A DNA stretch of 64,000 nucleotides from assembly GCA_035524255.1 (NCBI GenBank), contig DATKPG010000007.1, positions 3,270 through 67,269 on the forward strand, read 5' to 3'. Numbering within the stretch: position 1 is the first letter of the stretch; every line of letters begins with the position of its first letter. The position numbers were made by a program, and so were the translations under genes. Under the pieces are notes generated by a model, which did no database searches, was not told where the DNA came from, and was given only the letters and a program-made list of their open reading frames with translations. Below, piece after piece: positions 7,494 through 35,262 of the stretch. Source of the stretch: Smithella sp. (lineage in GTDB: Bacteria > Desulfobacterota > Syntrophia > Syntrophales > Smithellaceae).

Positions 7494-7510
7494 TCAATCA
7501 AAAGGTATTT

Positions 7511-7999: not shown

Positions 8000-8001
8000 A
8001 A

Positions 8002-9618: not shown

Positions 9619-9692
9619 AAAAAACCGGAATAAAAAAATAGAGTTGGACTTTGAGCAATAGCGGATGTTAAAAAGCAAGATGGCGTTTAAAA

Positions 9693-11309: not shown

Positions 11310-11327
11310 GTTGATAGTGGAGGATCA

Positions 11328-13031: not shown

Positions 13032-13050
13032 AAGCAGATAAGGATAAGAA

Positions 13051-14271
13051 ATGCCCAAATATACTTACCGTGCCATTAATCAGGTTGGAGAGGAAGTTTC
13101 CGGGAATATAGAGGCGGAATCATCTGAAATCGCGAATTTCATGCTGATTTCCCGCGAACTTATTCCATCAAAAATTACGGAGCGGCAGGGGGGCAGTAAT
13201 TGGTTGGATGCCGTATCGGTGATGGGCAAAGTTAAAACGACGGATCTGATCATGTTTACAAAACAGTTCCATTCCATGCTCGTCGCGGGGATACCGATAT
13301 TAAGAATTTTGTCCATTCTGGAAGATCAGACAGAGAGCAAAATTTTGAAGCAGGGGATTACGCAAATTATTAAAGATATCAATCAGGGTTTGTCCCTTTC
13401 CGATTCCATGCAAAAACACCCCAAAATATTTGACCGCCTTTACTGCGATATGATCAGGGCGGGTGAAGTCAGCGGAAATGTGCCGGTTGTTTTAGAGCGG
13501 CTGATTTACATTGTTGAACATGAGGCAAAAGTCAGGGCGGATATAAAATCGGCGCTCAGGTATCCCATGATAGTGCTTATAGCCTTAACCGGCGCGTTTG
13601 TTTTTCTTTTAACTTTTATCATACCGGTATTTGCCACGATGTTCTCCCACACCGGTTTGGAGCTGCCGTGGCCGACAAGAATTTCCATGATGCTATCCAA
13701 TTTTATCCACAACTACTGGTATTTGATTATTGGCGCAATAGCCATCATTGTTTTTAGCTTGCGTTTATATTTTAAAACAAGCAACGGCAAATTCGTAAAG
13801 GATTCTCTTTTATTAGAATTGCCGATCATAGGGCCGGTATTCAAAAAAGCGGCTTTATCACGTTTTGCCAGTATATTTGCTATCTTACAAACAAGCGGCG
13901 TTCCCATTATGCAATCATTGACCATCCTTTCGGCTACCATGGGCAATGAGGCCCTGACGCGCACGTTTGATAGTATCCGTGAGCGCATTAAAGAAGGGGC
14001 AGGAATTTCAGCGCCGTTAAAATCGTCCAAATATTTTACCCCGATGGTTATTGATATGATAGCGATTGGCGAAGAATCCGGAAAAATTGACGAAATGATG
14101 AGGGCCGTCGCCATGCATTATGATAGTGAAGTTGAGTACGCGGTTAAAGCGCTTTCCGACGCGATTGGCCCTATTCTGATCGTTGGTTTAGCCGCGGTTG
14201 TGGGATTTTTTGCTTTATCCGTATTTATGCCGATGTGGGATCTTATGAAACTGGCAACGCATCAATTCTAA
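13051..14271 (+). CDS. PilC/GspF/MshG-family inner-membrane platform protein
   Basis: 406 aa with two GspF-type repeats ('FTKQFHSMLVAGIPILRIL', 'FASIFAILQTSGVPIMQSL') and three hydrophobic segments. Follows the ATPase gene. Confidence 0.92.
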   Translation: MPKYTYRAINQVGEEVSGNIEAESSEIANFMLISRELIPSKITERQGGSNWLDAVSVMGKVKTTDLIMFTKQFHSMLVAGIPILRILSILEDQTESKILKQGITQIIKDINQGLSLSDSMQKHPKIFDRLYCDMIRAGEVSGNVPVVLERLIYIVEHEAKVRADIKSALRYPMIVLIALTGAFVFLLTFIIPVFATMFSHTGLELPWPTRISMMLSNFIHNYWYLIIGAIAIIVFSLRLYFKTSNGKFVKDSLLLELPIIGPVFKKAALSRFASIFAILQTSGVPIMQSLTILSATMGNEALTRTFDSIRERIKEGAGISAPLKSSKYFTPMVIDMIAIGEESGKIDEMMRAVAMHYDSEVEYAVKALSDAIGPILIVGLAAVVGFFALSVFMPMWDLMKLATHQF

Positions 14272-14529: not shown

Positions 14530-14907
14530 ATGTTAAAAAATGAGAAAGGTTTTACGTTGATTGAAATCATCGCGGTTCTGGTTATTTTAGGAATTTTGGC
14601 CGCGGTAGCCGTTCCGAGGTATTTAAGTCTGCTGGACCAGTCAAGAATCTCCGCGGCGCAGGGCGCTATTGCTGAATTAAAATCACGCGCGAGCGCTGAA
14701 TACGGCAAATTGCTTCTGTCGGGCTCCGGTGCGGATCCCGGAGAAGCCGCGGTTCAGGCTTCAATAAGCACGGATGTCGGCAGTGATTTTTCGGGTATTT
14801 CAATGGCCGCCAGCGGCAGTAATATCGCCTTTACAATTACAACTGTGAAAGGCGCCACTTTAAGCACAAACGCTACCGGAACCTGGTATTATCCGACCCA
14901 GAGTTAA
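14530..14907 (+). CDS. Type IV major pilin, copy 1 (class III signal peptide, N-methyl-Phe type)
   Basis: 125 aa with leader MLKNEKG|FTLIEIIAVLVILGILAAVAVP (Gly-1, Phe+1, Glu+5). RBS AAAGGAGAGG. No Cys; C-terminal ...WYYPTQS. Confidence 0.92.
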   Translation: MLKNEKGFTLIEIIAVLVILGILAAVAVPRYLSLLDQSRISAAQGAIAELKSRASAEYGKLLLSGSGADPGEAAVQASISTDVGSDFSGISMAASGSNIAFTITTVKGATLSTNATGTWYYPTQS

Positions 14908-14926
14908 GTAAATAAGCATTTATAGA

Positions 14927-14960
14927 AAATAGCGCGAATAGAAATTCGCGCTATTTTTTT
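14927..14960 (+). terminator. Rho-independent terminator after pilin copy 1
   Basis: Stem AAATAGCGCGAAT/ATTCGCGCTATTT with AGAA loop, followed by a T-run to 14960. Confidence 0.8.
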
Positions 14961-15011
14961 GCCGGCATTTCAATACACCTTGAAGCGTTTCTTTAAGAAA
15001 AAGGAGGAAAA

Positions 15012-15389
15012 ATGTTAAAAAATGAAAAAGGTTTCACGTTGATTGAAATCATCGCGGTTCTGGTTATTTTGGGAATTTTGGCTGCGGTGGCTGTTCCGAG
15101 GTATTTAAGTCTGCTGGACCAGTCAAGAATCTCCGCGGCGCAGGGCGCTATTGCTGAATTAAAATCACGCGCGAGCGCTGAATACGGCAAATTGCTTCTG
15201 TCGGGCTCCGGAGCGGATCCCGGAGAAGCCGCGGTTCAGGCTTCAATAAGCACGGATGTCGGCAGTGATTTTTCGGGCATTTCCATGGCCGCCAGCGGCA
15301 GTAATATCGCGTTTACTATTACCACGGTGAAAGGCGCCTCTTTAAGCACAAACGCCACCGGAACCTGGTATTATCCGACCCAGAGCTAA
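15012..15389 (+). CDS. Type IV major pilin, copy 2
   Basis: 125 aa, identical to copy 1 except residue 110 (Ser vs Thr). RBS AAGGAGG. Confidence 0.92.
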   Translation: MLKNEKGFTLIEIIAVLVILGILAAVAVPRYLSLLDQSRISAAQGAIAELKSRASAEYGKLLLSGSGADPGEAAVQASISTDVGSDFSGISMAASGSNIAFTITTVKGASLSTNATGTWYYPTQS

Positions 15390-15406
15390 ATAAAACCATT
15401 CAGGAG

Positions 15407-15435
15407 AAAAAAGCGTGATAACTTCACGCTTTTTC
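15407..15435 (+). terminator. Weaker terminator-like hairpin after pilin copy 2
   Basis: Stem AAAAGCGTGA/TCACGCTTTT with TAACT loop. The T-run is short (5) and is followed by CCCC. Confidence 0.55.
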
Positions 15436-15488
15436 CCCTGCTGATTTTATAGTTCATTAGAAGCATTTTTTAGCGACCAGGAGGAAAA

Positions 15489-15866
15489 ATGTTAAAAAAT
15501 GAAAAAGGCTTCACGTTAATTGAAATCATCGCGGTTCTCGTTGTTTTGGGAATTTTGGCCGCGGTGGCCGTTCCGAGGTATTTGAGTCTGCTGGATCAGT
15601 CAAGAATCGCGGCGGCACAGGGCGCCATTGCGGAATTTAAATCGCGCGCGAGCGGCGTGTATGCCAACCTGCTTCTGTCGGGCGCCGGTGCGGATCCCGG
15701 AGAAGCCGCGGTTCAGGCTTCAATCAATACGGATGTCGGCAGTGATTTTGCGGGTATTTCAATATCCGCCAGCGGCAGCAATATCGTGTTCACAATTACA
15801 ACCGTGAAAGGTTTCTCTTTAAGCACAAATGCCACCGGAACCTGGTATTATCCGATACAAAGTTAA
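15489..15866 (+). CDS. Type IV major pilin, copy 3 (diverged paralog)
   Basis: 125 aa with the same leader and length. It carries about a dozen substitutions (e.g. AEFKSRASGVYANLLLSGAG, ISISASGSNIVF, KGFSL, YYPIQS). RBS AGGAGG. Confidence 0.92.
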   Translation: MLKNEKGFTLIEIIAVLVVLGILAAVAVPRYLSLLDQSRIAAAQGAIAEFKSRASGVYANLLLSGAGADPGEAAVQASINTDVGSDFAGISISASGSNIVFTITTVKGFSLSTNATGTWYYPIQS

Positions 15867-15892
15867 ATTATTATAATGCACTTATGGAAAAG

Positions 15893-15923
15893 TAGCGTGA
15901 ATAGAAATTCGCGCTATTTTTTT
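15893..15923. terminator. Terminator between the convergent pilin array and the GT-C gene (possibly bidirectional)
   Basis: Stem TAGCGTGAAT/ATTCGCGCTA with AGAA loop, then T7. The same hairpin family follows copy 1. It sits 9 nt from the stop of the minus-strand gene at 15932. Confidence 0.75.
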
Positions 15924-15931
15924 GCTTGTTT

Positions 15932-18055
15932 CTAATTAAGATAGGAACATCTTGCGGCAATCGATAAATAATTTTCAATTCTGGGAACGTAAACGTGCAA
16001 ATTTTCATCCTTATTCAATTGCCGGATATATTCTTTTAAATTTAAAGAACCTTTTAAATACAGCAGGAAGCGAATTTCCTGACTTTGCATTTTTGCGTCT
16101 TTGATTTTTCCGTATAATTCAATGAGGGCCAGATTGGCATAAGCATTTTGAGGGGCAAGCTCTCTTACGGATTTCCAGTAATAGATGGCCTGGGCATAAT
16201 TATTTTTCAGGCGGCAGACCTCGGCCATAATTTCCAGCGCGTTTAGTGAATCCGGATCTTTCGCGAGAATTTTTTGGGCGAAATTTTTAGCGGCATCAAT
16301 TTTACCGTCTTTTAACAGAATAAAACTGTATAAATCCATTAGTTTGGAATTATCGGGATATTCTCTGAATTTATTTTCGATAATTTGTCCCGCCTGGCTG
16401 ATTTGATCATGACGGAGCTTTATCTTGGCCATATAGATATAATTGGGAATATGTTGAGGATTTGTTTTAGAGGATTTTATAAAGTAGTCCATGGCCAGAT
16501 CATCCTGCCTTTGGGTAAAATATAAAAGGCCCAGATTATATTCCTGAAGCGATAAAGATATATTGCTTCCTCCAAAATTATTCAGGCTCATCGCTTTTTC
16601 ATACTCTTTTAATCCTTTTTCATTTTCATGATAATTGCAGTAAATGCTGCCCAGCATGGCATGCGGCCTGCTCAATCCCGGAGACTTTTCAGCGTTATCA
16701 AACCACAGGGAAAAATCGTCGGAGAATATTTTATTGCGGCTGTAGGTAATGTCGCCCAGGCCGAATATGATGATGGCTATTCCAAAGGCGACGATAATCT
16801 GCATCAGCTTTTTGTAGGAGAAGTAATCAATAACATAAATGATAAACTCCGTGCAGGGAACAAACAAAAGCATGGACGGCAGGTAATTGCGGTAGTCGTA
16901 TATTAACTCCAGATTAAAAATGGAGCCTTCAATAATATGATTCAAAAAAAAGAAAATAACGCAAAAAGACGAGAGCGGGCGCTTACGGGATATATAAAGG
17001 GCAAATCCGATGATTAAAAATATCGTTAAAATTGACGGAATGGTCGTCCAGGGATGGATTAAGGAGCGGGAGACTTCAAAATCGTAGAGAAAAGTCAAGC
17101 GCGAACTGACCGGATAAAAAAGCAGTGAAAGATAAAACAGGATGACGCGGGGTTCGGTTAAAAGCCTTTGCATCATCGTGAAGCCGCGTATTTTATATCC
17201 GGCTGATAAATCGCGGAAACCCAGGAAATTGGAAAAACCGCTTGTATAAATAAATCCAATCACTAAAATCAGCAACAAAGGCAGCGCGGAAATCCTGATA
17301 CATTTTTTAATGTTTTCTTTAGTTACGCCCTGAATTAAGAATAAATCGAATAATAGAATACTGACCGGAAGCATCGCGGCGTTTTCTTTGGAAAGCACTC
17401 CGGCTAAACCCGCAGCCACGCACAGGATAAAAAACAGGATGGAAGAAGTTTTAGTTTTAGATAGTTGCGCGGATGTCCGGCCTTTGAGATAAAAATACAT
17501 GGACATGATATAAAACAGTCCAGCCATGGACGTATATCTCTGCACTATGTAGGTAACACAGGTAACGTGAAGGGGATTTAATGCCCATAAAAACGAAGCC
17601 AGCAGCGACACGGGGTAGGCAATATTTTGATATTGATCTTTCAGCCGCGGAAGCTTCAGCATGTTGTAAATAAATAAAAAAAGAAATACTGAAGTGAGGT
17701 AATGGATGATAAAATTAACCACATGAAATCCGAAGACATCCATTCCGCCCAATTTATAATTCAGGGCGAAGCTCAAAACCGGCAGGGGCCGCCATAATCT
17801 GTTCTGGCTAATATCATGTACATATTGTTTTATTTCCGGCCAGGAAAATGATTTTATCTGAGTATGCGGATTATTAACGATGTTGCCGAAATCATCAAAA
17901 TGCCAGTCGCCGTGAAAACTGTTGGAGTAAATAATAAATAATGCCGCGAACAGCGCGATAAACGTGAAAATATATTTATGGGATTCAGGGAAGTTTATAT
18001 TAACAGGCGGGGCAAAACCATTTTCTTCGGATGGCATGATAATCTCCTGACTCAT
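15932..18055 (-). CDS. TMTC/PMT-like GT-C-fold membrane glycosyltransferase fused to C-terminal TPR repeats (paralog type A, copy 1)
   Basis: 707 aa with many hydrophobic helices in the N-terminal ~450 aa. The first-loop motif 'SNSFHGDWHFDDFGNIVNNP' has an acidic DD as in PMT/TMTC loop 1. The C-terminal ~230 aa are TPR-like. Collinear with and clearly alignable to 22201-24288. Confidence 0.7.
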   Translation of the reverse strand: MSQEIIMPSEENGFAPPVNINFPESHKYIFTFIALFAALFIIYSNSFHGDWHFDDFGNIVNNPHTQIKSFSWPEIKQYVHDISQNRLWRPLPVLSFALNYKLGGMDVFGFHVVNFIIHYLTSVFLFLFIYNMLKLPRLKDQYQNIAYPVSLLASFLWALNPLHVTCVTYIVQRYTSMAGLFYIMSMYFYLKGRTSAQLSKTKTSSILFFILCVAAGLAGVLSKENAAMLPVSILLFDLFLIQGVTKENIKKCIRISALPLLLILVIGFIYTSGFSNFLGFRDLSAGYKIRGFTMMQRLLTEPRVILFYLSLLFYPVSSRLTFLYDFEVSRSLIHPWTTIPSILTIFLIIGFALYISRKRPLSSFCVIFFFLNHIIEGSIFNLELIYDYRNYLPSMLLFVPCTEFIIYVIDYFSYKKLMQIIVAFGIAIIIFGLGDITYSRNKIFSDDFSLWFDNAEKSPGLSRPHAMLGSIYCNYHENEKGLKEYEKAMSLNNFGGSNISLSLQEYNLGLLYFTQRQDDLAMDYFIKSSKTNPQHIPNYIYMAKIKLRHDQISQAGQIIENKFREYPDNSKLMDLYSFILLKDGKIDAAKNFAQKILAKDPDSLNALEIMAEVCRLKNNYAQAIYYWKSVRELAPQNAYANLALIELYGKIKDAKMQSQEIRFLLYLKGSLNLKEYIRQLNKDENLHVYVPRIENYLSIAARCSYLN

Positions 18056-18152
18056 GAAATATCGTTTGGACTGTATGTTTTTCTTTCATGATGATCCGTC
18101 CCCGGAAAGAGGGGCCGCGATCGAGGTACAGTTACATAATTTCATTCGAAAA

Positions 18153-20249
18153 TCAACGGCAGTATTTTCTTTCTTTAGCCCATGCAAGCGCTGTGCAGTT
18201 TCCCATTTTACACGCCATCCGCGCGTCATAACAGCCGGGCTCTTTGTCGCCCAGATTAAAGTAAGCGCCCCCCCGGTTATTATAGGCGTCGGCATAGTCC
18301 GGTTTCAGACGGATGGCCTCGTTAAAATCCTTAACGGCGCTCTGATACCGGCGAAGTTTAAAGTAAACGCCCCCCCGGTTGTTAAAAGCTTCGGCATAGT
18401 CCGGTTTGAGGCGCAAGGCCTGGTTGAAATCATCAATGGCGCTTTGAAACCGGCTCATTTTGAAATACGCGATTCCCCTGTTGTAGAAAAAACCCGCGTC
18501 ATTTGGTTTCAGGCGCAGGGCTTCATTAAAATCATTAATGGCATCCTGGTACCGGAAAAGACTTTGGTTGGCAGCCCCCCTGATATTATAGAAATCCGCG
18601 TCAGCCGGCTTAAGTCGTATGGCCTGATTATAATCTTTCAGGGCAAGTTCGTATTGGCCTAGCTTTGCGTAAGCAATCCCTCTATCCGAGTAGTAAGAAG
18701 GATCGTCCGGCCTTAAATGTATCGCTTTACTAAAATAATCCACGGCCTTTTGGTTCAAACCGAGTTTGATATGGATAATTCCCAGATTGTAATAAGCCTC
18801 GGCAAAATCAGGATTCAGGCGGATCGCCACATGATAGTCTGCAATGGCAGGCTTGTACTGGTCCAGCGCGGCATAAGAATTTGCCCTGTTGTTGTAGAAA
18901 AGAGCATTGTCCTGTATCAGGACAATGGCTTTATTATAATGATCAATGGCCTCTTTTATTTTTCCATCGGTAAAGAGGGCCAGACCTAAATTGTTATGCG
19001 CCAGAGCGTTATTCTTTGTTATCCGCAAATTATAATTCCAAAGCTTGATGCTGTTTTGCCAGTAAGAGCACTGCTGCCAGGTTATACATGACAAAACGGC
19101 AATGAAAAGCGCTCCCAGTGGAAATAAAATCTTTTTGCGCAGATTTTGGTGTGTGAAGAAAAGGGGGAAGCCCCACGCAAGCATTACGGCAATACCTATT
19201 GCGGGCAGATAATGGTAGCGGTTGGCCATGGCCTGTTCGCCTGATTGAACGATGCCGATAACCGGCAGAAGGGTTATCGCGTACCACAGCCATCCCACAA
19301 AAAGATACGGCCGACGTTTAACCGCCGCGATAACCAAAACGCTGATAACGATAATCAGAAGCGCGGCTCCAAGGAATTGCCCCGGTGAAATATAAGCAGG
19401 ATACGGATAGAAAACGGCAAGATCGCGGGGCCATAATGTTTTCTCCAGATAAGATACAAAAGAAACAGACGCGTTGGCGATCCGCAAACTAAAAGGAAAA
19501 TGTTTTACGGATGGATTGTACTGCGTATAAATCGTGATGACGGAAAAAAGCGCCGACAGGATAAAGAAGGGTATTTTTTCTTTCAGTTGCCATGAAAAAC
19601 AATGGCCGTCCCCAAACTCAAAACGTTTCAGCGGCCAATAATCCAGAAGGATCATCACAACGGGCAGGGTGACAACCATGGGCTTGCTCATAAGCGCGCA
19701 CGCAAAGGACATCAAAACCGGCAGATATCTTCTGGTGATGGGTTTTTCCGTGTAATAGACATACAGGCACAAAGTCAGCATCCAGAAAAAGGCGCTTAAG
19801 ACGTCTTTACGCTCGGCTATCCAGGCAACCGATTCCACATGCATAGGATGCACGGCGAAAAACGCGGCGACAAACGCGCTTTTCCAGATCGTTCCTGTCA
19901 TGCGGCAAAATAGCCAGAAGAGTAATAGCGTGCTCAATATATGCAGGATAAGATTGGTGATATGATAGCCGCCGGCGTTTAGACCGAATAGCTGATGATC
20001 CAGCATGAGTGACAGCCATATCAGAGGATGCCATAACGAATCGGCATACGTTGTGGCAAACGCCCAGCAAATTCCGGAAAGTGTTATCCCGGACTGGATA
20101 TGGCTGTTGTCAGTTACATAAAGCGGATCATCGAAATTGATAAAGTCATAAAGATTGACCTGCCAGAAAACGGCAAAGGTGATAACGGTCAACGACAGAT
20201 AAACGATTAGTTTCTGTCTGTCGGAACTTATATTTATCCTGCTTAACAT
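18153..20249 (-). CDS. TMTC/PMT-like GT-C-fold membrane glycosyltransferase with long TPR array and Cys-rich C-terminal tail (paralog type B, copy 1)
   Basis: 698 aa with loop-1 motif 'WQVNLYDFINFDDPLYVTDNSHIQSG' and a polytopic N-domain. About 8 TPRs ('A..DYN.AI.L.P..A.AYNNRG.AY'). Tail 'GCYDARMACKMGNCTALAWAKERKYCR'. Confidence 0.7.
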   Translation of the reverse strand: MLSRINISSDRQKLIVYLSLTVITFAVFWQVNLYDFINFDDPLYVTDNSHIQSGITLSGICWAFATTYADSLWHPLIWLSLMLDHQLFGLNAGGYHITNLILHILSTLLLFWLFCRMTGTIWKSAFVAAFFAVHPMHVESVAWIAERKDVLSAFFWMLTLCLYVYYTEKPITRRYLPVLMSFACALMSKPMVVTLPVVMILLDYWPLKRFEFGDGHCFSWQLKEKIPFFILSALFSVITIYTQYNPSVKHFPFSLRIANASVSFVSYLEKTLWPRDLAVFYPYPAYISPGQFLGAALLIIVISVLVIAAVKRRPYLFVGWLWYAITLLPVIGIVQSGEQAMANRYHYLPAIGIAVMLAWGFPLFFTHQNLRKKILFPLGALFIAVLSCITWQQCSYWQNSIKLWNYNLRITKNNALAHNNLGLALFTDGKIKEAIDHYNKAIVLIQDNALFYNNRANSYAALDQYKPAIADYHVAIRLNPDFAEAYYNLGIIHIKLGLNQKAVDYFSKAIHLRPDDPSYYSDRGIAYAKLGQYELALKDYNQAIRLKPADADFYNIRGAANQSLFRYQDAINDFNEALRLKPNDAGFFYNRGIAYFKMSRFQSAIDDFNQALRLKPDYAEAFNNRGGVYFKLRRYQSAVKDFNEAIRLKPDYADAYNNRGGAYFNLGDKEPGCYDARMACKMGNCTALAWAKERKYCR

Positions 20250-20316
20250 AATCGAATTCAGTTTCCCTTATAATAATGTCCCGCATCCCATGCTGCACGT
20301 TAAACCCTGAACCGGT

Positions 20317-22158
20317 TTAACGGCAGAGGCCTTTAACTTTCGCGGCTTCCAGCGTTTTGCAATTTCCCAGTTTACACGCCAATTGCGCGTCATAACAGCC
20401 CTGTATTTTATCGCCCCGGTTTAAGTAAGATTCTCCCCGGCCGTTGTAAGCGCAGGCATTGTCCGGATTCAGTCGGATCGTTTTATTAAAATCATCAACG
20501 GCGCTTTGATACCGGTGAAGGCTATTGTAAACGGTTCCCCTTTTGCAGTAGGCATCGGCGTAAACCGGTTTCAGAGCAATGGCTTTATTGTAATCTTCAA
20601 TGGCCTGTTGAACCTGCCCCGTGAAAGCATAAGCATCTCCCCTGAAGGCGTAGGAATCCGCGTAGTCCGGTTTCAGAGCTATGGCTTTATTAAAGTCCGT
20701 AAGCGCCGGTTGATATCGGCCGAGCTGGGTGTACGCTCCGCCCCTGTTGTTGTATAAAACATAACCCACGTTGTTTCGCACCGTATCCGGCATCAGGCGG
20801 ATGGCTTCGCTGTAATGATACACAGCTTCTTCGATTTTGCCTTCACGGGCAAAAGCCGGAGCGATGTTGTTATGCGCGAGATAATTATTCTGTGTCACCC
20901 GCAGGGCATGGTTAAAGAGCGTGATGCTGTCCCTCCAATAACCGCATTGCCGCCACGCCATCAATGACAACAGGCCGATGAAAATCAATCCCGCCGGGAA
21001 TAAAATCCTTTTGCGCGCGTTTTCGCTTTTAAAAAAAAGCGGTATGCCCCACGCGAGCATTACGGCAATGCCGATAGAAGGCAGATATTGATAGCGGTCG
21101 GCTCCTGCGAAGCCTCCCACCTGAAGGATTCCGATGACCGGCAGAAGCGTTATCGCGTACCACAGCCATCCTACAAAAAGATACGGCAGGCGTCTCCTCA
21201 TCATAATGACGGCGGCGCTGATAACCAGAATCCCAAGGGCGGCGCCTGTGACCTGCCAGTGGGGAAGTTGTTCAGAAAATGGATAGAAAATTGTCAAATC
21301 ATAAGGCCATAATGTTTTCTCCAGATAGGTCATCAAAGAAACAGGCATGTTAGCCAGACGCGAAGCCAGGGGAAAAACTTTTACAGATTGACTGTCCGGA
21401 GAATAAAGTGTGATGATAATAACGGCTGACGACAAGATCAAAAAAGGTATTTTTTCCCATAGCGGCCATAATGAAACTTTAACCGGCAAAATTTCCTTTA
21501 AATTGTTTTCGGTTTTTTTTGCTTCAAAACGTCCAAGCGGCCAGTAATCCAGAAGAAGCATAACAACGGGCAGGGTGACAACCATGGGCTTGCTCATAAG
21601 GGCGCAGGCAAAGGAAATCACAACCGGCAGATATCTTCTGAGGAGGGGTTTTTCCGTGTAGTAGACATAAAGGCACAAAGTCAGCATCCAGAAAAAAGCG
21701 CTTAATACATCTTTGCGCTCGGCAATCCACGCGACCGATTCCACATGAAGCGGGTGAAGCGCGAAGAGCGCGGCGACAAAAGCGCTCTTATATATCGCTT
21801 GGGTCATGCGGTTAAAAAGCCAGAAGAGCAAAAGCGCGCTGAAAATATGCAGGATAAGGTTGGTGATATGATAGCCGCCTGCATTTGGGCCTGCCAGTTT
21901 ATAATCCAGCATAAAAGACATCCACACCAGAGGATGCCATAAATCGAAATACTTTGTGCCAAACGCCCAGCGAATACTGTCCGGCGTTATTCCGGACTTA
22001 ATATGGCTGTTCCCCGTTACATAAACCTGATCGTCGAGATTAACAAAGTCATAAAGATTTACCTGCCAGAAAACGGCAAGCGTAATAATCGTTAAAGCGA
22101 TATAAATAAACAGAGTGTTTGTCTGATGATCAGAGCCGATATTTATCTTCTTTAACAT
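20317..22158 (-). CDS. TMTC/PMT-like GT-C-fold membrane glycosyltransferase with TPRs and Cys-rich tail (paralog type B, copy 2)
   Basis: 613 aa with loop-1 'WQVNLYDFVNLDDQVYVTGNSHIKSG', collinear with 18153-20249 but with fewer TPRs. Tail 'GCYDAQLACKLGNCKTLEAAKVKGLCR'. Confidence 0.7.
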   Translation of the reverse strand: MLKKINIGSDHQTNTLFIYIALTIITLAVFWQVNLYDFVNLDDQVYVTGNSHIKSGITPDSIRWAFGTKYFDLWHPLVWMSFMLDYKLAGPNAGGYHITNLILHIFSALLLFWLFNRMTQAIYKSAFVAALFALHPLHVESVAWIAERKDVLSAFFWMLTLCLYVYYTEKPLLRRYLPVVISFACALMSKPMVVTLPVVMLLLDYWPLGRFEAKKTENNLKEILPVKVSLWPLWEKIPFLILSSAVIIITLYSPDSQSVKVFPLASRLANMPVSLMTYLEKTLWPYDLTIFYPFSEQLPHWQVTGAALGILVISAAVIMMRRRLPYLFVGWLWYAITLLPVIGILQVGGFAGADRYQYLPSIGIAVMLAWGIPLFFKSENARKRILFPAGLIFIGLLSLMAWRQCGYWRDSITLFNHALRVTQNNYLAHNNIAPAFAREGKIEEAVYHYSEAIRLMPDTVRNNVGYVLYNNRGGAYTQLGRYQPALTDFNKAIALKPDYADSYAFRGDAYAFTGQVQQAIEDYNKAIALKPVYADAYCKRGTVYNSLHRYQSAVDDFNKTIRLNPDNACAYNGRGESYLNRGDKIQGCYDAQLACKLGNCKTLEAAKVKGLCR

Positions 22159-22200
22159 AGACAGTTTTAGTTCCTCTGATTTTGGAGAAAAAAGCCCGAA

Positions 22201-24288
22201 TCAATGCGCGCTGTTTCCCCGGTTAATGTATTCGCATTTTTTAATAATATCTGAATAATGCTCAATTTTGGGAACGTAAGCCATTAACTTTTCATCCCTG
22301 TTTAACTTATCAATATATTCATTTAAATTTAAAGAATCCTGCAGATAAGACAAGATGCGGATTTCCTGATCAAGCATCTTTTTGTCTTTCATTTTATCAT
22401 ATAATTCAATAAGCGCCAGATTGGCATAAGCATTTTGCGGGGCAAGCCCCCGGACGGATTTCCAGTAATAGATGGCGCAGGCGTCGTTATTTTTCAGGCG
22501 GCAGCCCCCGGCCAGAATTTCGAGCGCAAAAAGAGAATTCGGATTTTTTGCCAGAGTTTTTTTGGCGAAGCGTTGAGCATCATCAATCCTGCCGTCTTTC
22601 AGCAGAATTAAACTGTATAGTTCCAACAATTCAGAATTATCAGGATATTTTTTTAATTTATCTTCGATGATTTGTCTGGCTTCTTTCATTTTATTTTGTC
22701 TGAGTTTAATTTTCGCCATATGAATATAATTGGGGGGATATTCAGGAATTATTTCAGAAGATTTTTTAAAGCAGTCCAGAGCCTCGTCATCCCGTGTTTT
22801 TTCAAAATAATAAAGACCCAGATTGGATTCCTGAATCGCGAGCGCTTCCCGGCTTCCAAAATTATTTAATGTCATCGCTTTTTGATATTCATGATAAGCC
22901 TTTTCTTTCTCGTTATTCATATAATAAATTCTACCCGCGTTGGTATGCGGTCTGCTGAGTCCCGGGGACTTGTCAATGTTGTCAAGCCAAAGGAGCAAAT
23001 CGTCAGAAACCGTTTTATTGCGGCCATATGTAATATCGCCTTCTCCAAACAATATTAAAGCTATTCCGAGAGCGATCATAAATCTGATGATTTTTTTATA
23101 GGAGAAATAATCCATGGCGTGAATAATGAATTCCGCGAAGGGTACAAACAAAAGCATGGACGGCAGATAGTTGCGATGTTCATAAATCAGTTCAAGAGAA
23201 AAAAAAGAACCTTCAATGATATGATTCAAGAAATAAAAAATAATGCAAAAAGACAGCATCGGCCGCTTTCGGGCAATATAAAAGGCAAAAACGATTATAG
23301 CCGGTATCAATAAAATTGAAGGAATGGTCGTCCAGGGGTGCAGCAATGACCTGGAAACCTCTACATCATAGAGAAGCGTCAGGCGCGAACTAACCGGATA
23401 AAAAAGCAGGGAAAGATAAAAAAGGATGACGCGGGGTTCGGTTAAAAGCCTTTCGCCCATTGTGAAATCACGTATTTTATAGTCATGGATTATTTTGGAG
23501 AAATCAACGTAAATAAATGCCGCGATGATCATAATAATGACGGGCAGGATGGCAATTTTGACACATTTTATAATATTTTCTTTTGTGAAGCCCTGAATTA
23601 AAAATAAATCAAACAGCAAGATGCTCACCGGGAGCATGGCCGCGTTTTCCTTGGTGAGTATCGCGGCCATACCGGAGACGATGCACAGGGTAAAAAACAG
23701 GATAGATGAAGTCAATCGGCCCGACATTCGGCCTTTGAGATAAAAATACATGGACATGATGTAAAATAATCCGGCCATGGAAGCCATCCGCTGAACGATG
23801 TAAGTGACGGAAGTCACCCAAACGGGATTTAACGCCCAGAAAAACGAAGCCAGCAGCGCCACCGGATAGGCTGTATTTTCATATTGATCCCTCAGCCGCG
23901 GAAGCCTGAGTGTGTTGTAAATGAATAGAAAAAGAAACACGGCCGCGAGGTAATGGATGATAAAATTAACCGCGTGAAATCCGAAGACATCCATGCCGCC
24001 CGATTTATAATTCAGGGCGAAGCTCAAAAATGATAACGGCCGTGAAGGTCTTGCGTGTTCAATCCCGTAAATGCAATGTTTTATTTCGGGCCATGAAAAA
24101 GAGTTTATCCGGATATATTGATTGTCAACAATATTGGCATAGTCGTCAAAATGCCAATCGCCGTAAAAACTGTTCGAATAAATCAGAAACAGCGTGATGA
24201 AAAGAGCGATAAACGTGAACGCGTATTTGCCGGAAGCATCTGTTCCAAAATGAAAGGGAAACGTAAATCCGTTATTTTTGTTTAACAT
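22201..24288 (-). CDS. TMTC/PMT-like GT-C-fold membrane glycosyltransferase fused to TPR repeats (paralog type A, copy 2)
   Basis: 695 aa with loop-1 'SNSFYGDWHFDDYANIVDNQ'. Same architecture as 15932-18055. Confidence 0.7.
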   Translation of the reverse strand: MLNKNNGFTFPFHFGTDASGKYAFTFIALFITLFLIYSNSFYGDWHFDDYANIVDNQYIRINSFSWPEIKHCIYGIEHARPSRPLSFLSFALNYKSGGMDVFGFHAVNFIIHYLAAVFLFLFIYNTLRLPRLRDQYENTAYPVALLASFFWALNPVWVTSVTYIVQRMASMAGLFYIMSMYFYLKGRMSGRLTSSILFFTLCIVSGMAAILTKENAAMLPVSILLFDLFLIQGFTKENIIKCVKIAILPVIIMIIAAFIYVDFSKIIHDYKIRDFTMGERLLTEPRVILFYLSLLFYPVSSRLTLLYDVEVSRSLLHPWTTIPSILLIPAIIVFAFYIARKRPMLSFCIIFYFLNHIIEGSFFSLELIYEHRNYLPSMLLFVPFAEFIIHAMDYFSYKKIIRFMIALGIALILFGEGDITYGRNKTVSDDLLLWLDNIDKSPGLSRPHTNAGRIYYMNNEKEKAYHEYQKAMTLNNFGSREALAIQESNLGLYYFEKTRDDEALDCFKKSSEIIPEYPPNYIHMAKIKLRQNKMKEARQIIEDKLKKYPDNSELLELYSLILLKDGRIDDAQRFAKKTLAKNPNSLFALEILAGGCRLKNNDACAIYYWKSVRGLAPQNAYANLALIELYDKMKDKKMLDQEIRILSYLQDSLNLNEYIDKLNRDEKLMAYVPKIEHYSDIIKKCEYINRGNSAH

Positions 24289-24313: not shown

Positions 24314-25249
24314 TTACCCTTTCCGGGATTTGGAAAAATATTCGATCATGGGAAATAATGCGGCCAGGATTATTTCCACAAAGGTTATCAAAAAACGGGT
24401 CAGGATGGTTCCGAAAATAACGACCGGTTGCGCCATAAATGCCGGAAGAATGAGGAGGGCAAAGCCCTCACGGACGCCGATGCCTGCAGGGGCAAAAAGG
24501 GCGGCTACGCCGATAAGCGATGCGGCATAGTAAACGCCGGTTAACGTGAGAAAAAGATTCCAGCCGACAGGGTGGAAACAATTAAAGGCAAAATAAATTC
24601 CCAAACCGTAAGGCAAACCGATTATAATATTGGCAAGGACAAATTTAATCAGCAATCCGTAGGTGGGCAATTCAGTAAGCGGTTCTTTATGGATCAGCTT
24701 AAAAATAACGGCGGAAATCTTTTTCAGAACGGGAGGATATAATATCAGCAGAAAAAATATAACAAAAGAGACCGCGGCCGTTCGCACATAACCCGGCATG
24801 GTTTTAGGAAGAAAGGCGATGGAAATTAAAACAATAATAAACGCCGCCGTCATCGAAGTAATGAATTCGACTCCGGTCGCGAAGGCGACAACCCGTTTGC
24901 TCACGTTGCCGTACAAATCCATTCGCACAAGAAATAAACCGACTTTGCCCGGTATGTATTTCCCCAGTTGAGATAAACTCCAACATTTGGCCGTCGGCAG
25001 AAAAGAAGCTTTGAGGCCGAACGACGCGGCCAGACGAAACCAGATGAATATCTGCAACAGATAAGATATAAGAAAGGATAATATGCTGTAGAATAAATAG
25101 ATCCACTCTAAATCATATTGGAAGCGGCGTATGTCCGAAAAATTTAAATATATATAATAGCCGACGAAAAAAAATACCAGAAGCAAAAGCAGTCTGCTGT
25201 ACCATTTTCTGATATTCGGAGAAATGATTAATCGTTTAAGCTTCATCAT
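24314..25249 (-). CDS. Flippase-like polytopic membrane protein (UPF0104 / LPG_synthase_TM-type domain)
   Basis: 311 aa with ~8 hydrophobic segments and the motif 'LSQLGKYIPGKVG', characteristic of the MprF-flippase-like family as I recall it. No soluble domain. Confidence 0.55.
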   Translation of the reverse strand: MMKLKRLIISPNIRKWYSRLLLLLVFFFVGYYIYLNFSDIRRFQYDLEWIYLFYSILSFLISYLLQIFIWFRLAASFGLKASFLPTAKCWSLSQLGKYIPGKVGLFLVRMDLYGNVSKRVVAFATGVEFITSMTAAFIIVLISIAFLPKTMPGYVRTAAVSFVIFFLLILYPPVLKKISAVIFKLIHKEPLTELPTYGLLIKFVLANIIIGLPYGLGIYFAFNCFHPVGWNLFLTLTGVYYAASLIGVAALFAPAGIGVREGFALLILPAFMAQPVVIFGTILTRFLITFVEIILAALFPMIEYFSKSRKG

Positions 25250-25339: not shown

Positions 25340-26140
25340 TTATTTTTGGATCAGATAGAATAACCATAACGTCGGGAGCCTGTATTTTTTCAGAAGATGA
25401 TCCATTAAATTCAGAGGACGGAAAAAAAACGCGGCAATTTTTTCAGGCAATAACTTTCCCAGGATGTACATGGGGAGAAAGAAAAAAGTTGTCGCAGGTA
25501 TCCGTTCCTCTTTGATAATTAATCCTCCTGAGGCTTGAATCAGATTAGTCAGTTCGGCAGACGAAAAACACCGGCCTCCCGTATGAATATTACCGGATGA
25601 AGCATTATTTTTTAAATAATTTAAAATGCCGAAACCAGTTTGATAATTTATTCCTGAAATGTCGGGTTCGATGAGGATTAATTTGCCGCCGGAATTCAAT
25701 TTTTCTAAAAGATTTTTTATGACGATGGGGCGCTGATTTCTTTGAACATACATCATGACCGTAACCGATATAATCAGATCGAACAGGCCTATATCTTCAG
25801 GGATTTTTTCCAGGGAACCCACAAAAGCATTCTTCCCGGTATTTTTTTTATACAGGGATACATAAGCGGGGCTGATATCCATTCCGATAATTTCAGCTTC
25901 TGGCAGTTTTTGCGCCACAGGCATGGTTATCCTGCCCCAGCCGCAGCCGACATCTAAAATTCTGCAGTCTTTTTTTACAGGATGAATACTGTCAAATATA
26001 AAATTAAGATGAGCAAAATGGAAATGCCTGTTGGCCGCCTCCGGCATGTTTTTAAATAACACACTTTTGCAGGAGCTGCCGTATAAAATGCCGCGTTTTT
26101 CCCATTCCTCCATGTTGACGTCATGACAGGTCACAAGCAT
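25340..26140 (-). CDS. Class I SAM-dependent methyltransferase
   Basis: 266 aa with motif I 'ILDVGCGWGRIT', post-I 'IIGMDIS' and motif II-like 'FDLIISVTVMMYV'. Confidence 0.8.
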   Translation of the reverse strand: MLVTCHDVNMEEWEKRGILYGSSCKSVLFKNMPEAANRHFHFAHLNFIFDSIHPVKKDCRILDVGCGWGRITMPVAQKLPEAEIIGMDISPAYVSLYKKNTGKNAFVGSLEKIPEDIGLFDLIISVTVMMYVQRNQRPIVIKNLLEKLNSGGKLILIEPDISGINYQTGFGILNYLKNNASSGNIHTGGRCFSSAELTNLIQASGGLIIKEERIPATTFFFLPMYILGKLLPEKIAAFFFRPLNLMDHLLKKYRLPTLWLFYLIQK

Positions 26141-26157
26141 ATCTCCATCCGGCGCGT

Positions 26158-27300: not shown

Positions 27301-27995
27301 AAAACGTCCTTCATTTTTTCATAATCATCGATAGCCTGTTCGTAATCTTCCGGACGGCCGATATCCATCCAGTATCCGTTATAGGCGTGACAATGGACAG
27401 GCCTGTTGAGCAATAGAAGTTTCTGAACCAGATCGGGAAAATCAAACCGGCCTTTAGCCGGAATAAGAGGCAAAACCCTGCTCGAAAGAATATAAATTCC
27501 CATGCTGACATTGAAATCAAGGGAGGGTTTCTCCCGAAATCCGGTGAGTCTCCCGTCTTTGGAGTAATTAAGCGTTCCGTAATTCACGTTTTGTGTTCGT
27601 TTATGGGTGGCGATGGTTAAGTCGGCTTTTTTGTCTTTATGAATTTTAAAAAGTTTTTTTAATGACAAATCCGTCAGAATATCGCCGTTCATCATCAGGA
27701 AGTCATCATCAAGATTTTTCATGTGCCTGATCGGCGCGGCCGTGCCCAGCGGTTCTTTTTCAATATAATACTCGATGGGTATTCTCCATTTTTCGCCGCT
27801 TCCGAAAAAGGCGACAAAAAGATCGTGTTGATGCCCGATGGCCATCGTTATTTTTTTAAATCCGTTTTTCTTCAATTGCTTTACAACGACTTCCAAAATC
27901 GGACAATCGCCGATGGGCATGAGCGGTTTGGGCAATACGGTCGTGTAGGGTTTTAATCTTGTGCCTCTTCCTCCAGCCAGAATAATCGCCTGCAT
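27297..27995 (-). CDS. Sugar-1-phosphate nucleotidyltransferase (NTP_transferase family)
   Basis: 232 aa with N-terminal 'MQAIILAGGRGTRLKPYTTVLPKPLMPI' signature and '...YWMDIGRPEDY'. Confidence 0.88.
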   Translation of the reverse strand: MQAIILAGGRGTRLKPYTTVLPKPLMPIGDCPILEVVVKQLKKNGFKKITMAIGHQHDLFVAFFGSGEKWRIPIEYYIEKEPLGTAAPIRHMKNLDDDFLMMNGDILTDLSLKKLFKIHKDKKADLTIATHKRTQNVNYGTLNYSKDGRLTGFREKPSLDFNVSMGIYILSSRVLPLIPAKGRFDFPDLVQKLLLLNRPVHCHAYNGYWMDIGRPEDYEQAIDDYEKMKDVL

Positions 27996-34686: not shown

Positions 34687-34689
34687 AAA

Positions 34690-35244: not shown

Positions 35245-35262
35245 CCATTAAGGGAGAATAAT

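What the first reader, a model, noticed from the sequence alone, without database searches (positions are those of the whole stretch)
15932..24288. Four paralogous GT-C/TPR genes arranged A-B-B-A, with a 4-Cys tail only in type B
Seen: the outer genes (707 and 695 aa) share loop-1 'SNSF(H/Y)GDWHFDD'. The inner genes (698 and 613 aa) share 'WQVNLYDF(I/V)N(F/L)DD'. Types A and B are much less similar to each other. Type B proteins end in GCYDA(R/Q)(M/L)ACK(M/L)GNC..L..AK.....CR (C-x7-C-x4-C-x13-C). Copy B1 has roughly three more TPRs than B2. On the + strand the TPR regions generate long antisense ORFs (e.g. 18054-18662). Inference: the order A-B-B-A is not a simple tandem duplication of an A-B pair. 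Two enzyme types with different TPR lengths suggest different acceptors or sequential sugar additions. The Cys tail could be a disulfide-stabilised periplasmic cap.
Basis: partly seen in the sequence, partly recalled or inferred. Interest (0 to 1): 0.7.

Follow-up and report, generated by a model that had tools for sequence, protein, structure and literature searches.

The report
Pilus-linked membrane glycosyltransferase gene array
Four related membrane enzymes that probably attach sugars to proteins sit inside a pilus gene cluster of a Smithella bacterium, next to the pilin genes and a sugar-synthesis operon, so they most likely glycosylate the pilus subunit; this resembles a system already known in Pseudomonas.

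Summary
Four same-strand genes (15932-24288, minus strand) fall into two types. A1 and A2 are 67% identical, B1 and B2 59%, and A versus B about 24%, yet collinear across the whole membrane domain. The 4-Cys tail is real and occurs in 105 of 120 close type B relatives. Its spacing is C-x6-C-x4-C-x11-C, not x7/x4/x13.

All four proteins have 11 predicted membrane helices, an invariant DD in the first outward loop and a C-terminal TPR domain. K+R counts in the loops place the DD loop, the TPRs and the Cys tail in the periplasm. This is the architecture of Pseudomonas TfpW and animal TMTC enzymes.

The main new result is context. The genes end a 12-gene operon for an amino-sugar pathway, a membrane GT2 and a flippase-like protein. 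That operon lies between the major pilin genes and the minor pilin genes of an MSHA-like type IV pilus cluster. In 39 of 49 related species, a type A gene lies within 500 bp of the pilin gene.

The A-B-B-A order is not conserved; one relative has A-B-A-B. The most likely function is pilin glycosylation. I rate this a new variant of a known kind, of moderate interest. No structural or significant sequence match to a solved GT-C enzyme was obtained.

The parts
15932..18055 (-). Type A1 membrane enzyme with TPR domain (707 aa ORF; likely 701 aa from the start at 18037). DD is at nt 17891-17896. Its stop codon lies 65 nt from the stop codon of pilin copy 3, and the two genes converge.
18153..20249 (-). 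Type B1 membrane enzyme with TPR domain (698 aa). DD is at nt 20127-20132. It has about 8 TPRs plus a capped last repeat. The 4-Cys tail is encoded at nt 18156-18236.
20317..22158 (-). Type B2 membrane enzyme with TPR domain (613 aa). DD is at nt 22030-22035. It has about three fewer TPRs than B1. The 4-Cys tail is encoded at nt 20320-20400.
22201..24288 (-). Type A2 membrane enzyme with TPR domain (695 aa). DD is at nt 24142-24147. In a neighbour-joining tree it appears as the lineage-specific paralogue of A1.
24314..25249 (-). Polytopic membrane protein of the LPG_synthase_TM (flippase-like) family. It is the candidate flippase for the lipid-linked sugar.
   Evidence: PF03706, 34.8 bits against a cut-off of 33.4; found next to type A in many loci
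25340..26140 (-). SAM-dependent methyltransferase.
26158..27300 (-). DegT/PseC/LegC/ArnB-type sugar aminotransferase.
27297..27995 (-). Sugar-1-phosphate nucleotidyltransferase.
28003..28983 (-). LegB-like NAD-dependent NDP-sugar 4,6-dehydratase.
   Evidence: TIGR04180, 456 bits against a cut-off of 475
28980..30146 (-). GT4 glycosyltransferase (cytoplasmic type).
30143..31732 (-). Fusion of a GFO/IDH/MocA sugar dehydrogenase with a NeuD/PglB/VioB-type hexapeptide N-acetyltransferase.
31757..32857 (-). GT2 enzyme with two C-terminal membrane helices. It is the first gene of the operon and the candidate polyprenyl-phosphate sugar synthase. This role is inferred from architecture only.
14530..15866 (+). 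Three tandem major pilin genes (14530-14907, 15012-15389, 15489-15866), each 125 aa with a G|FTLIE prepilin motif. Copy 1 is 96% identical in DNA to copy 2; copy 3 is about 88% identical to copies 1 and 2.
15885..15924 (+). Terminator-like hairpin in the convergent gap between pilin copy 3 and A1.
   Evidence: a consensus match only
5131..14271 (+). MSHA-like type IV pilus assembly genes. In order: PilM-like, two small membrane proteins, secretin, AAA_22 ATPase, MshE-type ATPase with a c-di-GMP-binding N-terminal domain, and GspF-type platform protein.
33302..37299 (+). Four minor-pilin-like genes. Three carry prepilin motifs (GFTMIE, GFTLIE, AFTLIE); the fourth is a 678-aa protein with an N-terminal hydrophobic segment.

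Best explanation
The four genes most likely encode integral-membrane protein glycosyltransferases built like Pseudomonas TfpW and animal TMTC enzymes. Each has 11 membrane helices with the N-terminus in the cytoplasm, a catalytic DD at the start of the first periplasmic loop, and a periplasmic TPR domain that holds the protein acceptor.

They are the last four genes of a 12-gene operon.
1. The operon's cytoplasmic enzymes make an amino-deoxy sugar nucleotide. The enzyme set suggests a 2,4-diamino-2,4,6-trideoxyhexose (bacillosamine type), possibly N-acetylated and methylated.
2. The membrane GT2 loads the sugar onto a polyprenyl phosphate.
3. The flippase-like protein moves it to the periplasmic face.
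4. The A and B enzymes transfer it to Ser or Thr residues of periplasmic proteins.

For type A, the acceptor is most likely the major pilin of the MSHA-like type IV pilus encoded next door. Type B belongs to a large, dispersed family with variable TPR length. It either adds further or different sites on the pilins or serves other envelope proteins.

The 4-Cys tail decorates the last TPR helix and the capping helix of one type B subclade. It most likely forms two disulfide staples, C1-C4 and C2-C3.

Shown here: paralogy, motif conservation, predicted helix count, loop charge bias, operon structure and conserved synteny with pilin genes. Inferred: the fold family, the donor, the acceptor, the identity of the sugar and the disulfides.
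For: Architecture:
- The AlphaFold2 models give 11 long hydrophobic helices followed by TPR helices. Mean pLDDT is 84.7 for B1 and 74.9 for A1.
- Loops assigned to the cytoplasm carry 16.4 K+R in 72 residues, against 10.2 in 174 residues for periplasmic loops (type B). Type A gives 15.3 in 80 against 13.7 in 185.
- In B1, the first outward loop (33-96) has 0 K+R and 6 D+E.

Conserved residues:
- DD, N48, N99, H103, P135, R147, K189, P196, R256, P274, P314 and Y347 are invariant across 17 diverse relatives.
- These map onto the TMTC motifs DD, xRP, RxD, KE..T and ERxxY described in PMC7801869.
- They also map onto the Y-x6-P motif reported for periplasmic loop 4 of TfpW and Emb: Y267/P274 in type B and Y302/P309 in type A.

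Family links:
- Pfam PMT_2 matches B1 and B2 just below its cut-off (22.6 and 24.4 bits against 26.1).
- PMT_2 matches 7 of 17 relatives, best E = 3.8e-8.
- Many relatives carry a precomputed PF13231 assignment, and JGI names members of both types 'protein O-mannosyl-transferase'.

Operon: 12 same-strand genes with gaps of -4 to 97 nt. They include sugar-pathway enzymes, a GT2 with two C-terminal membrane helices and an LPG_synthase_TM protein.

Context:
- The operon lies between the major pilins plus assembly genes and the minor pilins.
- In GTDB species genomes, 39 of 49 loci with at least 3 kb on both flanks have a pilin homologue within 500 bp of a type A gene, and 43 of 49 within 3 kb.
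- In several Syntrophales genomes type A sits on the same strand inside the pilus operon, between pilin and minor pilins, with no sugar genes nearby.
- The six loci without a pilin still pair type A with the sugar and flippase genes.

Precedent: TfpW is 646 aa with 11 membrane helices, a DDx motif and a periplasmic TPR domain. It is encoded directly downstream of pilA and is required for pilin glycosylation.
Against: - No significant match to any solved GT-C structure was obtained. Sequence and profile searches of the PDB with the membrane domain found nothing real.
- hhalign against E. coli ArnT was insignificant, with probabilities of 0.1% and 1.3%.
- Both fold searches were swamped by TPR hits because full-length models were used.
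- Type A has no direct Pfam GT-C hit. Neither type hits the TMTC-specific DUF1736 model.
- In type B, the Glu of the TMTC KE motif, proposed to bind metal, is replaced by Pro (SKPMVVT).
- The GT2 resembles ArnC only in its N-terminal 70 residues.
- No Ser or Thr of the pilin is strongly conserved; the best positions are 62-64% Ser/Thr.
- Type B paralogues elsewhere are not next to pilins.
- The operon also contains a GT4 whose role in a single-sugar scheme is unexplained.
- There are no experimental data for this lineage.
Confidence: 0.55

Rival explanations
1. The enzymes are protein glycosyltransferases, but the pilin is not their main acceptor. They would modify other envelope or surface proteins such as adhesins or secretin-associated proteins. 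The pilus neighbourhood would then reflect only a shared surface-structure island.
For: Type B is a dispersed multi-copy family. At least four paralogues lie on one 2.78-Mb Smithella contig. Two of them were examined and sit alone beside Adhesin_E, Lcl_C or hypothetical genes. Six type A loci have sugar genes but no pilin within 10 kb. The window also encodes a 929-aa adhesin-like protein with Big_1 and Invasin domains. The pilins have no strongly conserved Ser or Thr.
Against: Type A lies within 500 bp of the pilin in 39 of 49 loci, spanning genomes labelled Smithella, Syntrophales and Desulfobacterales. It often sits inside the pilus operon on the same strand. That is hard to explain without a pilus-related role. 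TfpW sets a direct precedent.
Confidence: 0.22
2. The acceptor is a lipid or a glycan rather than a protein. This would resemble ArnT modifying lipid A, or a polymerase or transferase acting on a surface polysaccharide.
For: The only curated family with any match is PMT_2, the family model that Pfam names dolichyl-phosphate-mannose-protein mannosyltransferase; from my own knowledge, untested here, it also covers ArnT-like lipid A transferases. The operon follows Arn-like logic: an aminotransferase scoring 286 bits to the ArnB model, a GT2, a flippase-like protein and a membrane transferase. The operon also contains a GT4.
Against: Every member has a long periplasmic TPR domain, which is a protein-binding module. 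The characterised enzymes with this architecture, TfpW and TMTC, act on proteins. The conserved pilin synteny is not expected for a lipid A or polysaccharide enzyme.
Confidence: 0.1
3. The proteins, type A in particular, are pilus assembly or stability factors that work through their TPR domains. They would be analogues of PilF, PilW or MshN, with little or no catalytic role.
For: The cluster has no separate TPR protein at the position where, from my own knowledge of Vibrio MSHA clusters, MshN lies. JGI names many members 'Tfp pilus assembly protein PilF'. Type A TPRs score weakly against PilW and PilF models.
Against: The membrane domain is more conserved than the TPR domain. The DD, Lys, Arg and Y-x6-P positions are invariant across diverse relatives, which points to catalysis. 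Type A co-occurs with sugar-pathway and flippase genes even where no pilin is nearby. The PilF names derive only from the TPRs.
Confidence: 0.07
4. The 4-Cys tail is not a disulfide cap. It could be a metal-binding site, an intermolecular disulfide or a redox-sensing site.
For: Four invariant Cys in 27 residues could bind a metal. The host is a strict anaerobe (my own knowledge), and no disulfide-forming machinery was examined.
Against: In the B1 model, C673 and C680 lie seven residues apart within one helix (669-681). C685 precedes the capping helix (686-693) and C697 follows it. The local pLDDT blocks read 93-96. This puts the C1/C4 and C2/C3 pairs at opposite ends of a helical hairpin. That arrangement suits two staples and does not suit one tetrahedral site. 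Only one of 106 tails lacks a single Cys. Model coordinates could not be inspected, so this argument rests on geometry inferred from sequence positions.
Confidence: 0.25

Closest known systems
Pseudomonas aeruginosa TfpW (group IV pilin D-arabinofuranosyl transferase)
   Same: About 650-700 aa, with a cytoplasmic N-terminus, 11 membrane helices, a DD(x) motif in a periplasmic loop, a Y-x6-P motif in periplasmic loop 4 and a C-terminal periplasmic TPR domain. The gene lies next to the major pilin gene, and in some species the sugar-pathway genes are clustered with it (compared).
   Different: The host genomes here are labelled Smithella, Syntrophales and Desulfobacterales, and the pilus cluster is MSHA-like. 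The sugar pathway is an amino-deoxy-hexose type rather than D-Araf. There are four enzymes of two diverged types instead of one. One type carries a 4-Cys cap. Direct sequence homology to TfpW could not be tested because no TfpW sequence was available in the tools.
Metazoan TMTC1-4 protein O-mannosyltransferases
   Same: An 11-helix membrane domain followed by luminal or periplasmic TPRs. The DD motif in loop 1 is present. An xRP-L..LSF.LN stretch is close to the TMTC1 sequence SHKSYRPLCVLTSFRLN. Also present are RxD (type B), KE..T (type A) and an ERxxY-like motif (compared). JGI names members of both types 'protein O-mannosyl-transferase'.
   Different: There is no hit to the DUF1736 model that marks TMTCs. 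Type B has Pro in place of the motif Glu. The donor cannot be dolichyl-phosphate-mannose. The likely acceptor is a pilin rather than a cadherin.
ArnT / PMT_2 family GT-C transferases and the Arn pathway
   Same: Weak PMT_2 matches over residues 83-201. The operon logic is the same: aminotransferase, GT2, flippase and periplasmic GT-C enzyme.
   Different: ArnT has no TPR domain and acts on lipid A. The profile comparison with E. coli ArnT was not significant.
PglL / TfpO (PilO) O-oligosaccharyltransferases
   Same: They glycosylate type IV pilins in the periplasm. TfpO is encoded directly downstream of pilA. From my own knowledge, Neisseria pilin glycans start with a bacillosamine-type sugar, as the pathway here suggests.
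   Different: From my own knowledge, they belong to an unrelated family (Wzy_C domain) that transfers preassembled oligosaccharides from undecaprenyl diphosphate. No such domain was found in these proteins.

Membership tests
GT-C glycosyltransferase superfamily (PMT_2 / ArnT / PMT clan) | Polytopic N-terminal membrane domain with the active site facing away from the cytoplasm | tested here: met
   11 predicted helices in both models. K+R density is 3.9-fold (type B) and 2.6-fold (type A) higher in the loops assigned to the cytoplasm.
GT-C glycosyltransferase superfamily (PMT_2 / ArnT / PMT clan) | Conserved acidic motif (DD, DxD or ExD) in the first extracytoplasmic loop | tested here: met
   DD is invariant in 86 type B sequences, 65 type A sequences and 17 diverse relatives.
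GT-C glycosyltransferase superfamily (PMT_2 / ArnT / PMT clan) | Significant match to a curated GT-C family model | tested here: inconclusive
   PMT_2 scores 22.6 and 24.4 bits for B1 and B2, against a cut-off of 26.1. It matches 7 of 17 relatives, best E = 3.8e-8. Type A has no direct hit and is linked only through its homology to type B, E = 2e-24.
GT-C glycosyltransferase superfamily (PMT_2 / ArnT / PMT clan) | Structural similarity to a solved GT-C enzyme | tested here: inconclusive
   Foldseek searches with the full-length models returned only TPR proteins. PDB sequence and profile searches with the membrane domain found nothing real. hhalign against ArnT gave probabilities of 0.1-1.3%.
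GT-C glycosyltransferase superfamily (PMT_2 / ArnT / PMT clan) | Uses a polyprenyl-phosphate-linked sugar donor | not testable with these tools
   Only indirect support: a GT2 with two C-terminal membrane helices and a flippase-like protein lie in the same operon.
TMTC-type protein O-glycosyltransferases | 11 membrane helices followed by a luminal or periplasmic TPR domain | tested here: met
TMTC-type protein O-glycosyltransferases | Motifs M1-M7 of PMC7801869 (DD, SHKSYRP, RxD, KE(T/Q)xxT, DW, PxxP, ERxxY) | tested here: inconclusive
   M1 is present in both types. M2 appears as xRP in type A and WHP in type B. M3 is complete in type B (ERKD); type A keeps only the Arg. M4 is SKEN in type A and SKPMVVT in type B, where the Glu is lost. 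M7 is DRYHY in type B and EHRNY in type A. M5 and M6 were not identified with confidence.
TMTC-type protein O-glycosyltransferases | [quoted passage not shown] | tested here: not met
   No DUF1736 hit at E up to 1 in 16 members or at E up to 0.1 in 17 members.
TfpW-like pilin glycosyltransferases | Gene immediately adjacent to the major pilin gene | tested here: met
   A1 lies 65 nt from pilin copy 3. A pilin lies within 500 bp of a type A gene in 39 of 49 related loci. For type B, this holds only through its position in the array.
TfpW-like pilin glycosyltransferases | 11 membrane helices, a periplasmic DDx motif, a Y-x6-P(F)-x7-P motif in periplasmic loop 4 and a C-terminal TPR domain | tested here: met
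   Helices, DD and TPR as in the rows above. Type B has Y267-x6-P274-x7-P282. Type A has Y302-x6-P309, with no second Pro.
TfpW-like pilin glycosyltransferases | Detectable sequence homology to TfpW | not tested
   No TfpW sequence was available in any accessible collection.
TfpW-like pilin glycosyltransferases | Required for pilin glycosylation | not testable with these tools
   This needs genetics or mass spectrometry.

The most novel reading that the evidence does not exclude
Type A enzymes define a widespread, undescribed pilin-glycosylation system built into the MSHA-like type IV pilus operon of genomes labelled Smithella, Syntrophales and Desulfobacterales. They would be bacterial relatives of the animal TMTC O-mannosyltransferases. 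In Smithella the system has grown into a multi-enzyme array, in which Cys-capped type B enzymes with different TPR lengths add further sites or sugars. That would make these pili heavily and variably glycosylated. Syntrophus pili have been proposed to carry electrons between species (10.1101/479683). If the pilus here is related to those pili, which was not tested, such glycosylation would bear directly on that debate.
Probability: 0.25. Interest if true: 0.7.

Novelty: new variant of a known kind. Interest (0 to 1): 0.5.

Why it matters
Pilin glycosylation by a TPR-bearing membrane transferase encoded beside the pilin gene is established for Pseudomonas TfpW. Full-text searches of the held paper library found no description of it in Syntrophus or its relatives, or in connection with TMTC-like enzymes.

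The superfamily is very large: 108,742 clusters at 50% identity match the membrane-domain profile with E up to 0.001. Yet the searches made here turned up only one characterised bacterial enzyme of this architecture, TfpW. A conserved neighbour, the pilin, gives a concrete and testable acceptor for one clade. It also offers a tractable bacterial model for the TMTC enzyme class, some of whose human members are linked to disease.

If these pili are glycosylated, models of pilus function in methanogenic consortia would need to take it into account. That includes adhesion, phage resistance and the proposed electron transfer.

The clade-specific 4-Cys cap is a small structural curiosity. It sits on a periplasmic TPR domain in what is, from my own knowledge, a strict anaerobe.

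Tried and rejected
1. Fold comparison. I modelled the full-length B1 and A1 proteins and searched the PDB with them. The top 50 hits in both searches were TPR proteins. Both structure-prediction jobs were then spent, so the membrane domain could not be modelled alone. This was a planning error on my part.

2. PDB sequence and profile searches with the membrane domain only. Single sequences gave nothing. A 16-sequence profile hit only the PP2A B56 subunit at E about 0.02, which is spurious. A more diverse 17-sequence profile gave nothing.

3. hhalign of the family profiles against E. coli ArnT. The probabilities were 0.1% and 1.3%. The alignment does place the family's SK(E/P) on ArnT's TKG, but it is not significant.

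4. Pfam DUF1736, DUF2723 or PMT hits that would tie the family to TMTC, TMEM260 or PMT. No DUF1736 or DUF2723 hit appeared, and a single relative matched PMT at E = 0.0025.

5. Comparison of the operon's GT2 with ArnC and with the PDB. Only the N-terminal motif region is similar to ArnC, and there were no PDB hits. Its role as a lipid-sugar synthase therefore rests on architecture alone.

6. The antisense ORF 18054-18662 as a possible gene. I rejected it as a mirror of the TPR repeats that is not conserved in the orthologue.

7. A-B-B-A as a meaningful palindromic arrangement. I rejected this because the order varies among relatives.

8. A link between this pilin and the Syntrophus pili proposed to conduct electrons. 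No Syntrophus pilin sequence could be retrieved. The mature pilin here is 6.8% aromatic, below the 9% criterion quoted in that paper. I therefore claim no link.

Full report
**What is in the sequence**

Four ORFs lie head to tail on the minus strand:
- A1, 15932-18055, 707 aa
- B1, 18153-20249, 698 aa
- B2, 20317-22158, 613 aa
- A2, 22201-24288, 695 aa

A1 and A2 are 67% identical over their whole length. B1 and B2 are 59% identical. A and B proteins share 24-26% identity, with BLASTP E = 2e-24 over about 600 residues. In a joint alignment they are collinear across the whole membrane domain.

Three details need correction.
- The Cys spacing is C-x6-C-x4-C-x11-C plus one final residue.
- A1 probably starts at Met7, giving 701 aa as in NCBI's call for the identical protein.
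- The antisense ORF 18054-18662 is a by-product. Its translation repeats every 34 residues, with 27.8% self-identity at that lag. The 80%-identical orthologue keeps at most 92 codons open.

**Source organism and family size**

B1, A1 and A2 are identical to proteins annotated in a Smithella sp. metagenome-assembled genome, on a 139,876-bp contig.

- **Type B** is a very large family. The search returned 8000 scored hits, all with E below 1e-5. The best 120 are all at least 62% identical in the membrane domain. Total lengths range from about 495 to 700 aa because the number of TPRs varies. At least four paralogues lie on one 2.78-Mb Smithella contig. Two of these were examined and sit alone in unrelated neighbourhoods.
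- **Type A** had 2165 hits. Its length is nearly constant at about 690 aa.
- **Both together.** A profile of both membrane domains matched 108,742 clusters at 50% identity with E up to 0.001, and 39,125 with E up to 1e-30. The architecture is therefore common, although the literature searches made here turned up only one characterised bacterial example, TfpW.

**Architecture and topology**

Pfam recognises only TPRs above threshold. PMT_2, a GT-C family, matches B1 and B2 just below its cut-off. It matches 7 of 17 diverse relatives, with a best E of 3.8e-8.

The AlphaFold2 models have mean pLDDT of 84.7 (B1) and 74.9 (A1). Both show 11 long hydrophobic helices. Short helices lie in the first outward loop, and a TPR superhelix follows.

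With the N-terminus placed inside, the loops assigned to the cytoplasm hold 16.4 K+R in 72 residues. The outward loops hold 10.2 in 174 residues (type B, mean of 86 sequences). Type A gives 15.3 in 80 against 13.7 in 185. The 64-residue DD loop of B1 has no Lys or Arg at all.

This places the DD loop, the TPRs and the Cys tail in the periplasm.

**Conserved residues**

Fourteen positions are invariant across 17 diverse relatives. In B1 numbering they are D40, D41, N48, N99, H103, P135, R147, F155, K189, P196, R256, P274, P314 and Y347.

Several correspond to the TMTC motifs listed in PMC7801869:
- DD in loop 1.
- An xRP-L..LSF.LN stretch in type A that resembles the TMTC1 sequence SHKSYRPLCVLTSFRLN.
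- RxD in loop 2 (ERKD in type B).
- KE..T in loop 3 (SKEN in type A; SKPMVVT in type B, where the Glu is lost).
- An ERxxY-like motif in loop 5.

Both types also carry an invariant Y-x6-P in the fourth outward loop. A motif of this kind is reported for TfpW and the Emb arabinosyltransferases.

**Limits of the fold-family evidence**

I could not show a match to a solved GT-C structure.
- Fold searches with full-length models returned only TPR proteins.
- PDB sequence and profile searches with the membrane domain found nothing real.
- Profile comparison with E. coli ArnT was not significant.
- DUF1736, the Pfam marker of TMTCs, was not hit.

The GT-C assignment therefore rests on weak PMT_2 matches, motif and topology agreement, and source annotations. 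It is likely but not proven here.

**Genomic context, the most informative result**

The four genes end a 12-gene minus-strand operon (15932-32857) with gaps of -4 to 97 nt. In transcription order it encodes:
1. a GT2 with two C-terminal membrane helices;
2. a sugar dehydrogenase fused to a NeuD-type acetyltransferase;
3. a GT4;
4. a LegB-like 4,6-dehydratase (456 bits);
5. a sugar-1-phosphate nucleotidyltransferase;
6. a PseC/LegC/ArnB-type aminotransferase;
7. a methyltransferase;
8. an LPG_synthase_TM flippase-like membrane protein;
9. then A2, B2, B1 and A1.

The enzyme set suggests an amino-deoxy sugar of the bacillosamine type. This is an inference from family matches that are mostly below equivalog cut-offs.

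On the left, converging on A1, lie MSHA-like type IV pilus assembly genes and three tandem 125-aa pilin genes. A terminator-like hairpin occupies the 65-nt gap. On the right, diverging from the operon, lie four minor-pilin-like genes. The glycosylation operon is thus inserted between the major and minor pilin genes of one pilus cluster.

**Conservation of the context**

Close relatives (80-87% identity) keep the whole arrangement, with one pilin copy. A scan of one genome per GTDB species found 77 loci with type A homologues. Their records are labelled Smithella, Smithellaceae, Syntrophales, Desulfonema magnum, Desulfococcaceae and Desulfobacterales.

Among the 49 loci with at least 3 kb on both flanks:
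- 39 have a pilin homologue within 500 bp of a type A gene, and 43 within 3 kb;
- 38 also contain the MshE-type ATPase;
- only 9 contain a type B gene;
- only 10 contain the sugar genes.

In several Syntrophales genomes the order is assembly genes, pilin, type A, minor pilins, all on one strand. The six loci without a pilin still pair type A with the sugar and flippase genes.

Type A is therefore a conserved component of this pilus cluster. The sugar operon, type B and the second type A copy are additions in the Smithella lineage.

**History of the array**

A genome about 75% identical has the order A2-like, B, A1-like, B1-like, which is A-B-A-B. Other Smithella genomes show A-A, A-B-B, A-A with a reversed B, or a single A.

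In a neighbour-joining tree, A1 and A2 share an ancestor that covers only 21 of 82 type A sequences, all from loci L006-L023, whose records are labelled Smithella, Syntrophaceae or unclassified delta proteobacterium. The A2 clade has four members. The single-copy genes of the other genomes in this group fall with A1. This is a distance tree without support values, so it is indicative only.

The A-B-B-A order has no evident functional meaning.

**The 4-Cys tail**

It is present in 105 of 120 close type B relatives, nearly always with identical spacing. Among diverse type B-like cluster representatives it occurs in only 3 of 60, and never in type A. It is therefore a clade-specific addition.

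In the B1 model, C673 and C680 lie in the last TPR B-helix (669-681). C685 precedes the capping helix (686-693) and C697 follows it. The local pLDDT blocks read 93-96. In an antiparallel hairpin this brings C1 near C4 and C2 near C3. That favours two disulfide staples over a single metal site.

I could not read the model coordinates, so this remains an inference.

**Closest known system and verdict**

Pseudomonas TfpW is 646 aa. It has 11 membrane helices, a DDx motif and a periplasmic TPR domain. It is encoded directly downstream of pilA and is required for pilin glycosylation. In some species the sugar-pathway genes are clustered with it. The genes here share that design and that synteny.

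They differ in four ways:
- the lineage and the pilus type;
- the sugar pathway;
- the four-gene, two-type array;
- the Cys cap.

I could not test direct homology to TfpW. Full-text searches found no paper linking TMTC-like enzymes with pilins, or describing pilin glycosylation in Syntrophus and its relatives.

I rate this a new variant of a known kind. Interest is moderate, because a conserved candidate acceptor makes a very large uncharacterised enzyme family experimentally approachable.

Noticed in passing
window 14530-15866: Three tandem copies of the major pilin gene. Copy 1 is 96% identical in DNA to copy 2; copy 3 is about 88% identical to copies 1 and 2. The proteins differ at a few surface positions. 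Related genomes carry one to three copies.
   Followed up: partly
window 15932-24288: The type A genes are 39.5-40.2% GC and the type B genes 46.6-47.5% GC, although they lie in the same operon. This may reflect amino-acid composition or a different history.
   Followed up: no
window 18054-18662 (+): A 202-aa antisense ORF over the B1 TPR region. Its translation repeats every 34 residues, and the ORF is not conserved in the orthologue. It is an artefact of the repeats.
   Followed up: yes
window 82-2871 (-): A 929-aa ORF with Big_1, YtkA-like and Invasin_D3 domains, probably a surface adhesin, lies beside the pilus cluster. It could be another acceptor for the glycosyltransferases. This was not examined.
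   Followed up: no
window 9693-13031 (+): The AAA_22 ATPase scores against the XrtA/PEP-CTERM-associated ATPase model. The pilus ATPase carries an MshE-type c-di-GMP-binding N-terminal domain, which suggests that c-di-GMP controls this pilus.
   Followed up: no
window 45647-46654 (+): A 335-aa ORF whose N-terminus matches an IS200-like Y1 transposase domain.
   Followed up: no
window 56001-60000: A GC trough of 30-36%, against about 46% elsewhere in the window, covers ORFs 57190-59844. It may be acquired DNA.
   Followed up: no
L083 10001-11680 and L084 10001-11899: Type B paralogues with the Cys tail in another Smithella genome sit alone next to Adhesin_E, Lcl_C and hypothetical genes, not next to pilins or sugar genes.
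   Followed up: partly
L009, L015, L027, L036, L039: In these loci a type B-like gene lies on the opposite strand to type A. Where a pilin is also present (L009, L015, L027, L036), the type B-like gene sits between type A and the pilin, on the pilin's strand.
   Followed up: no
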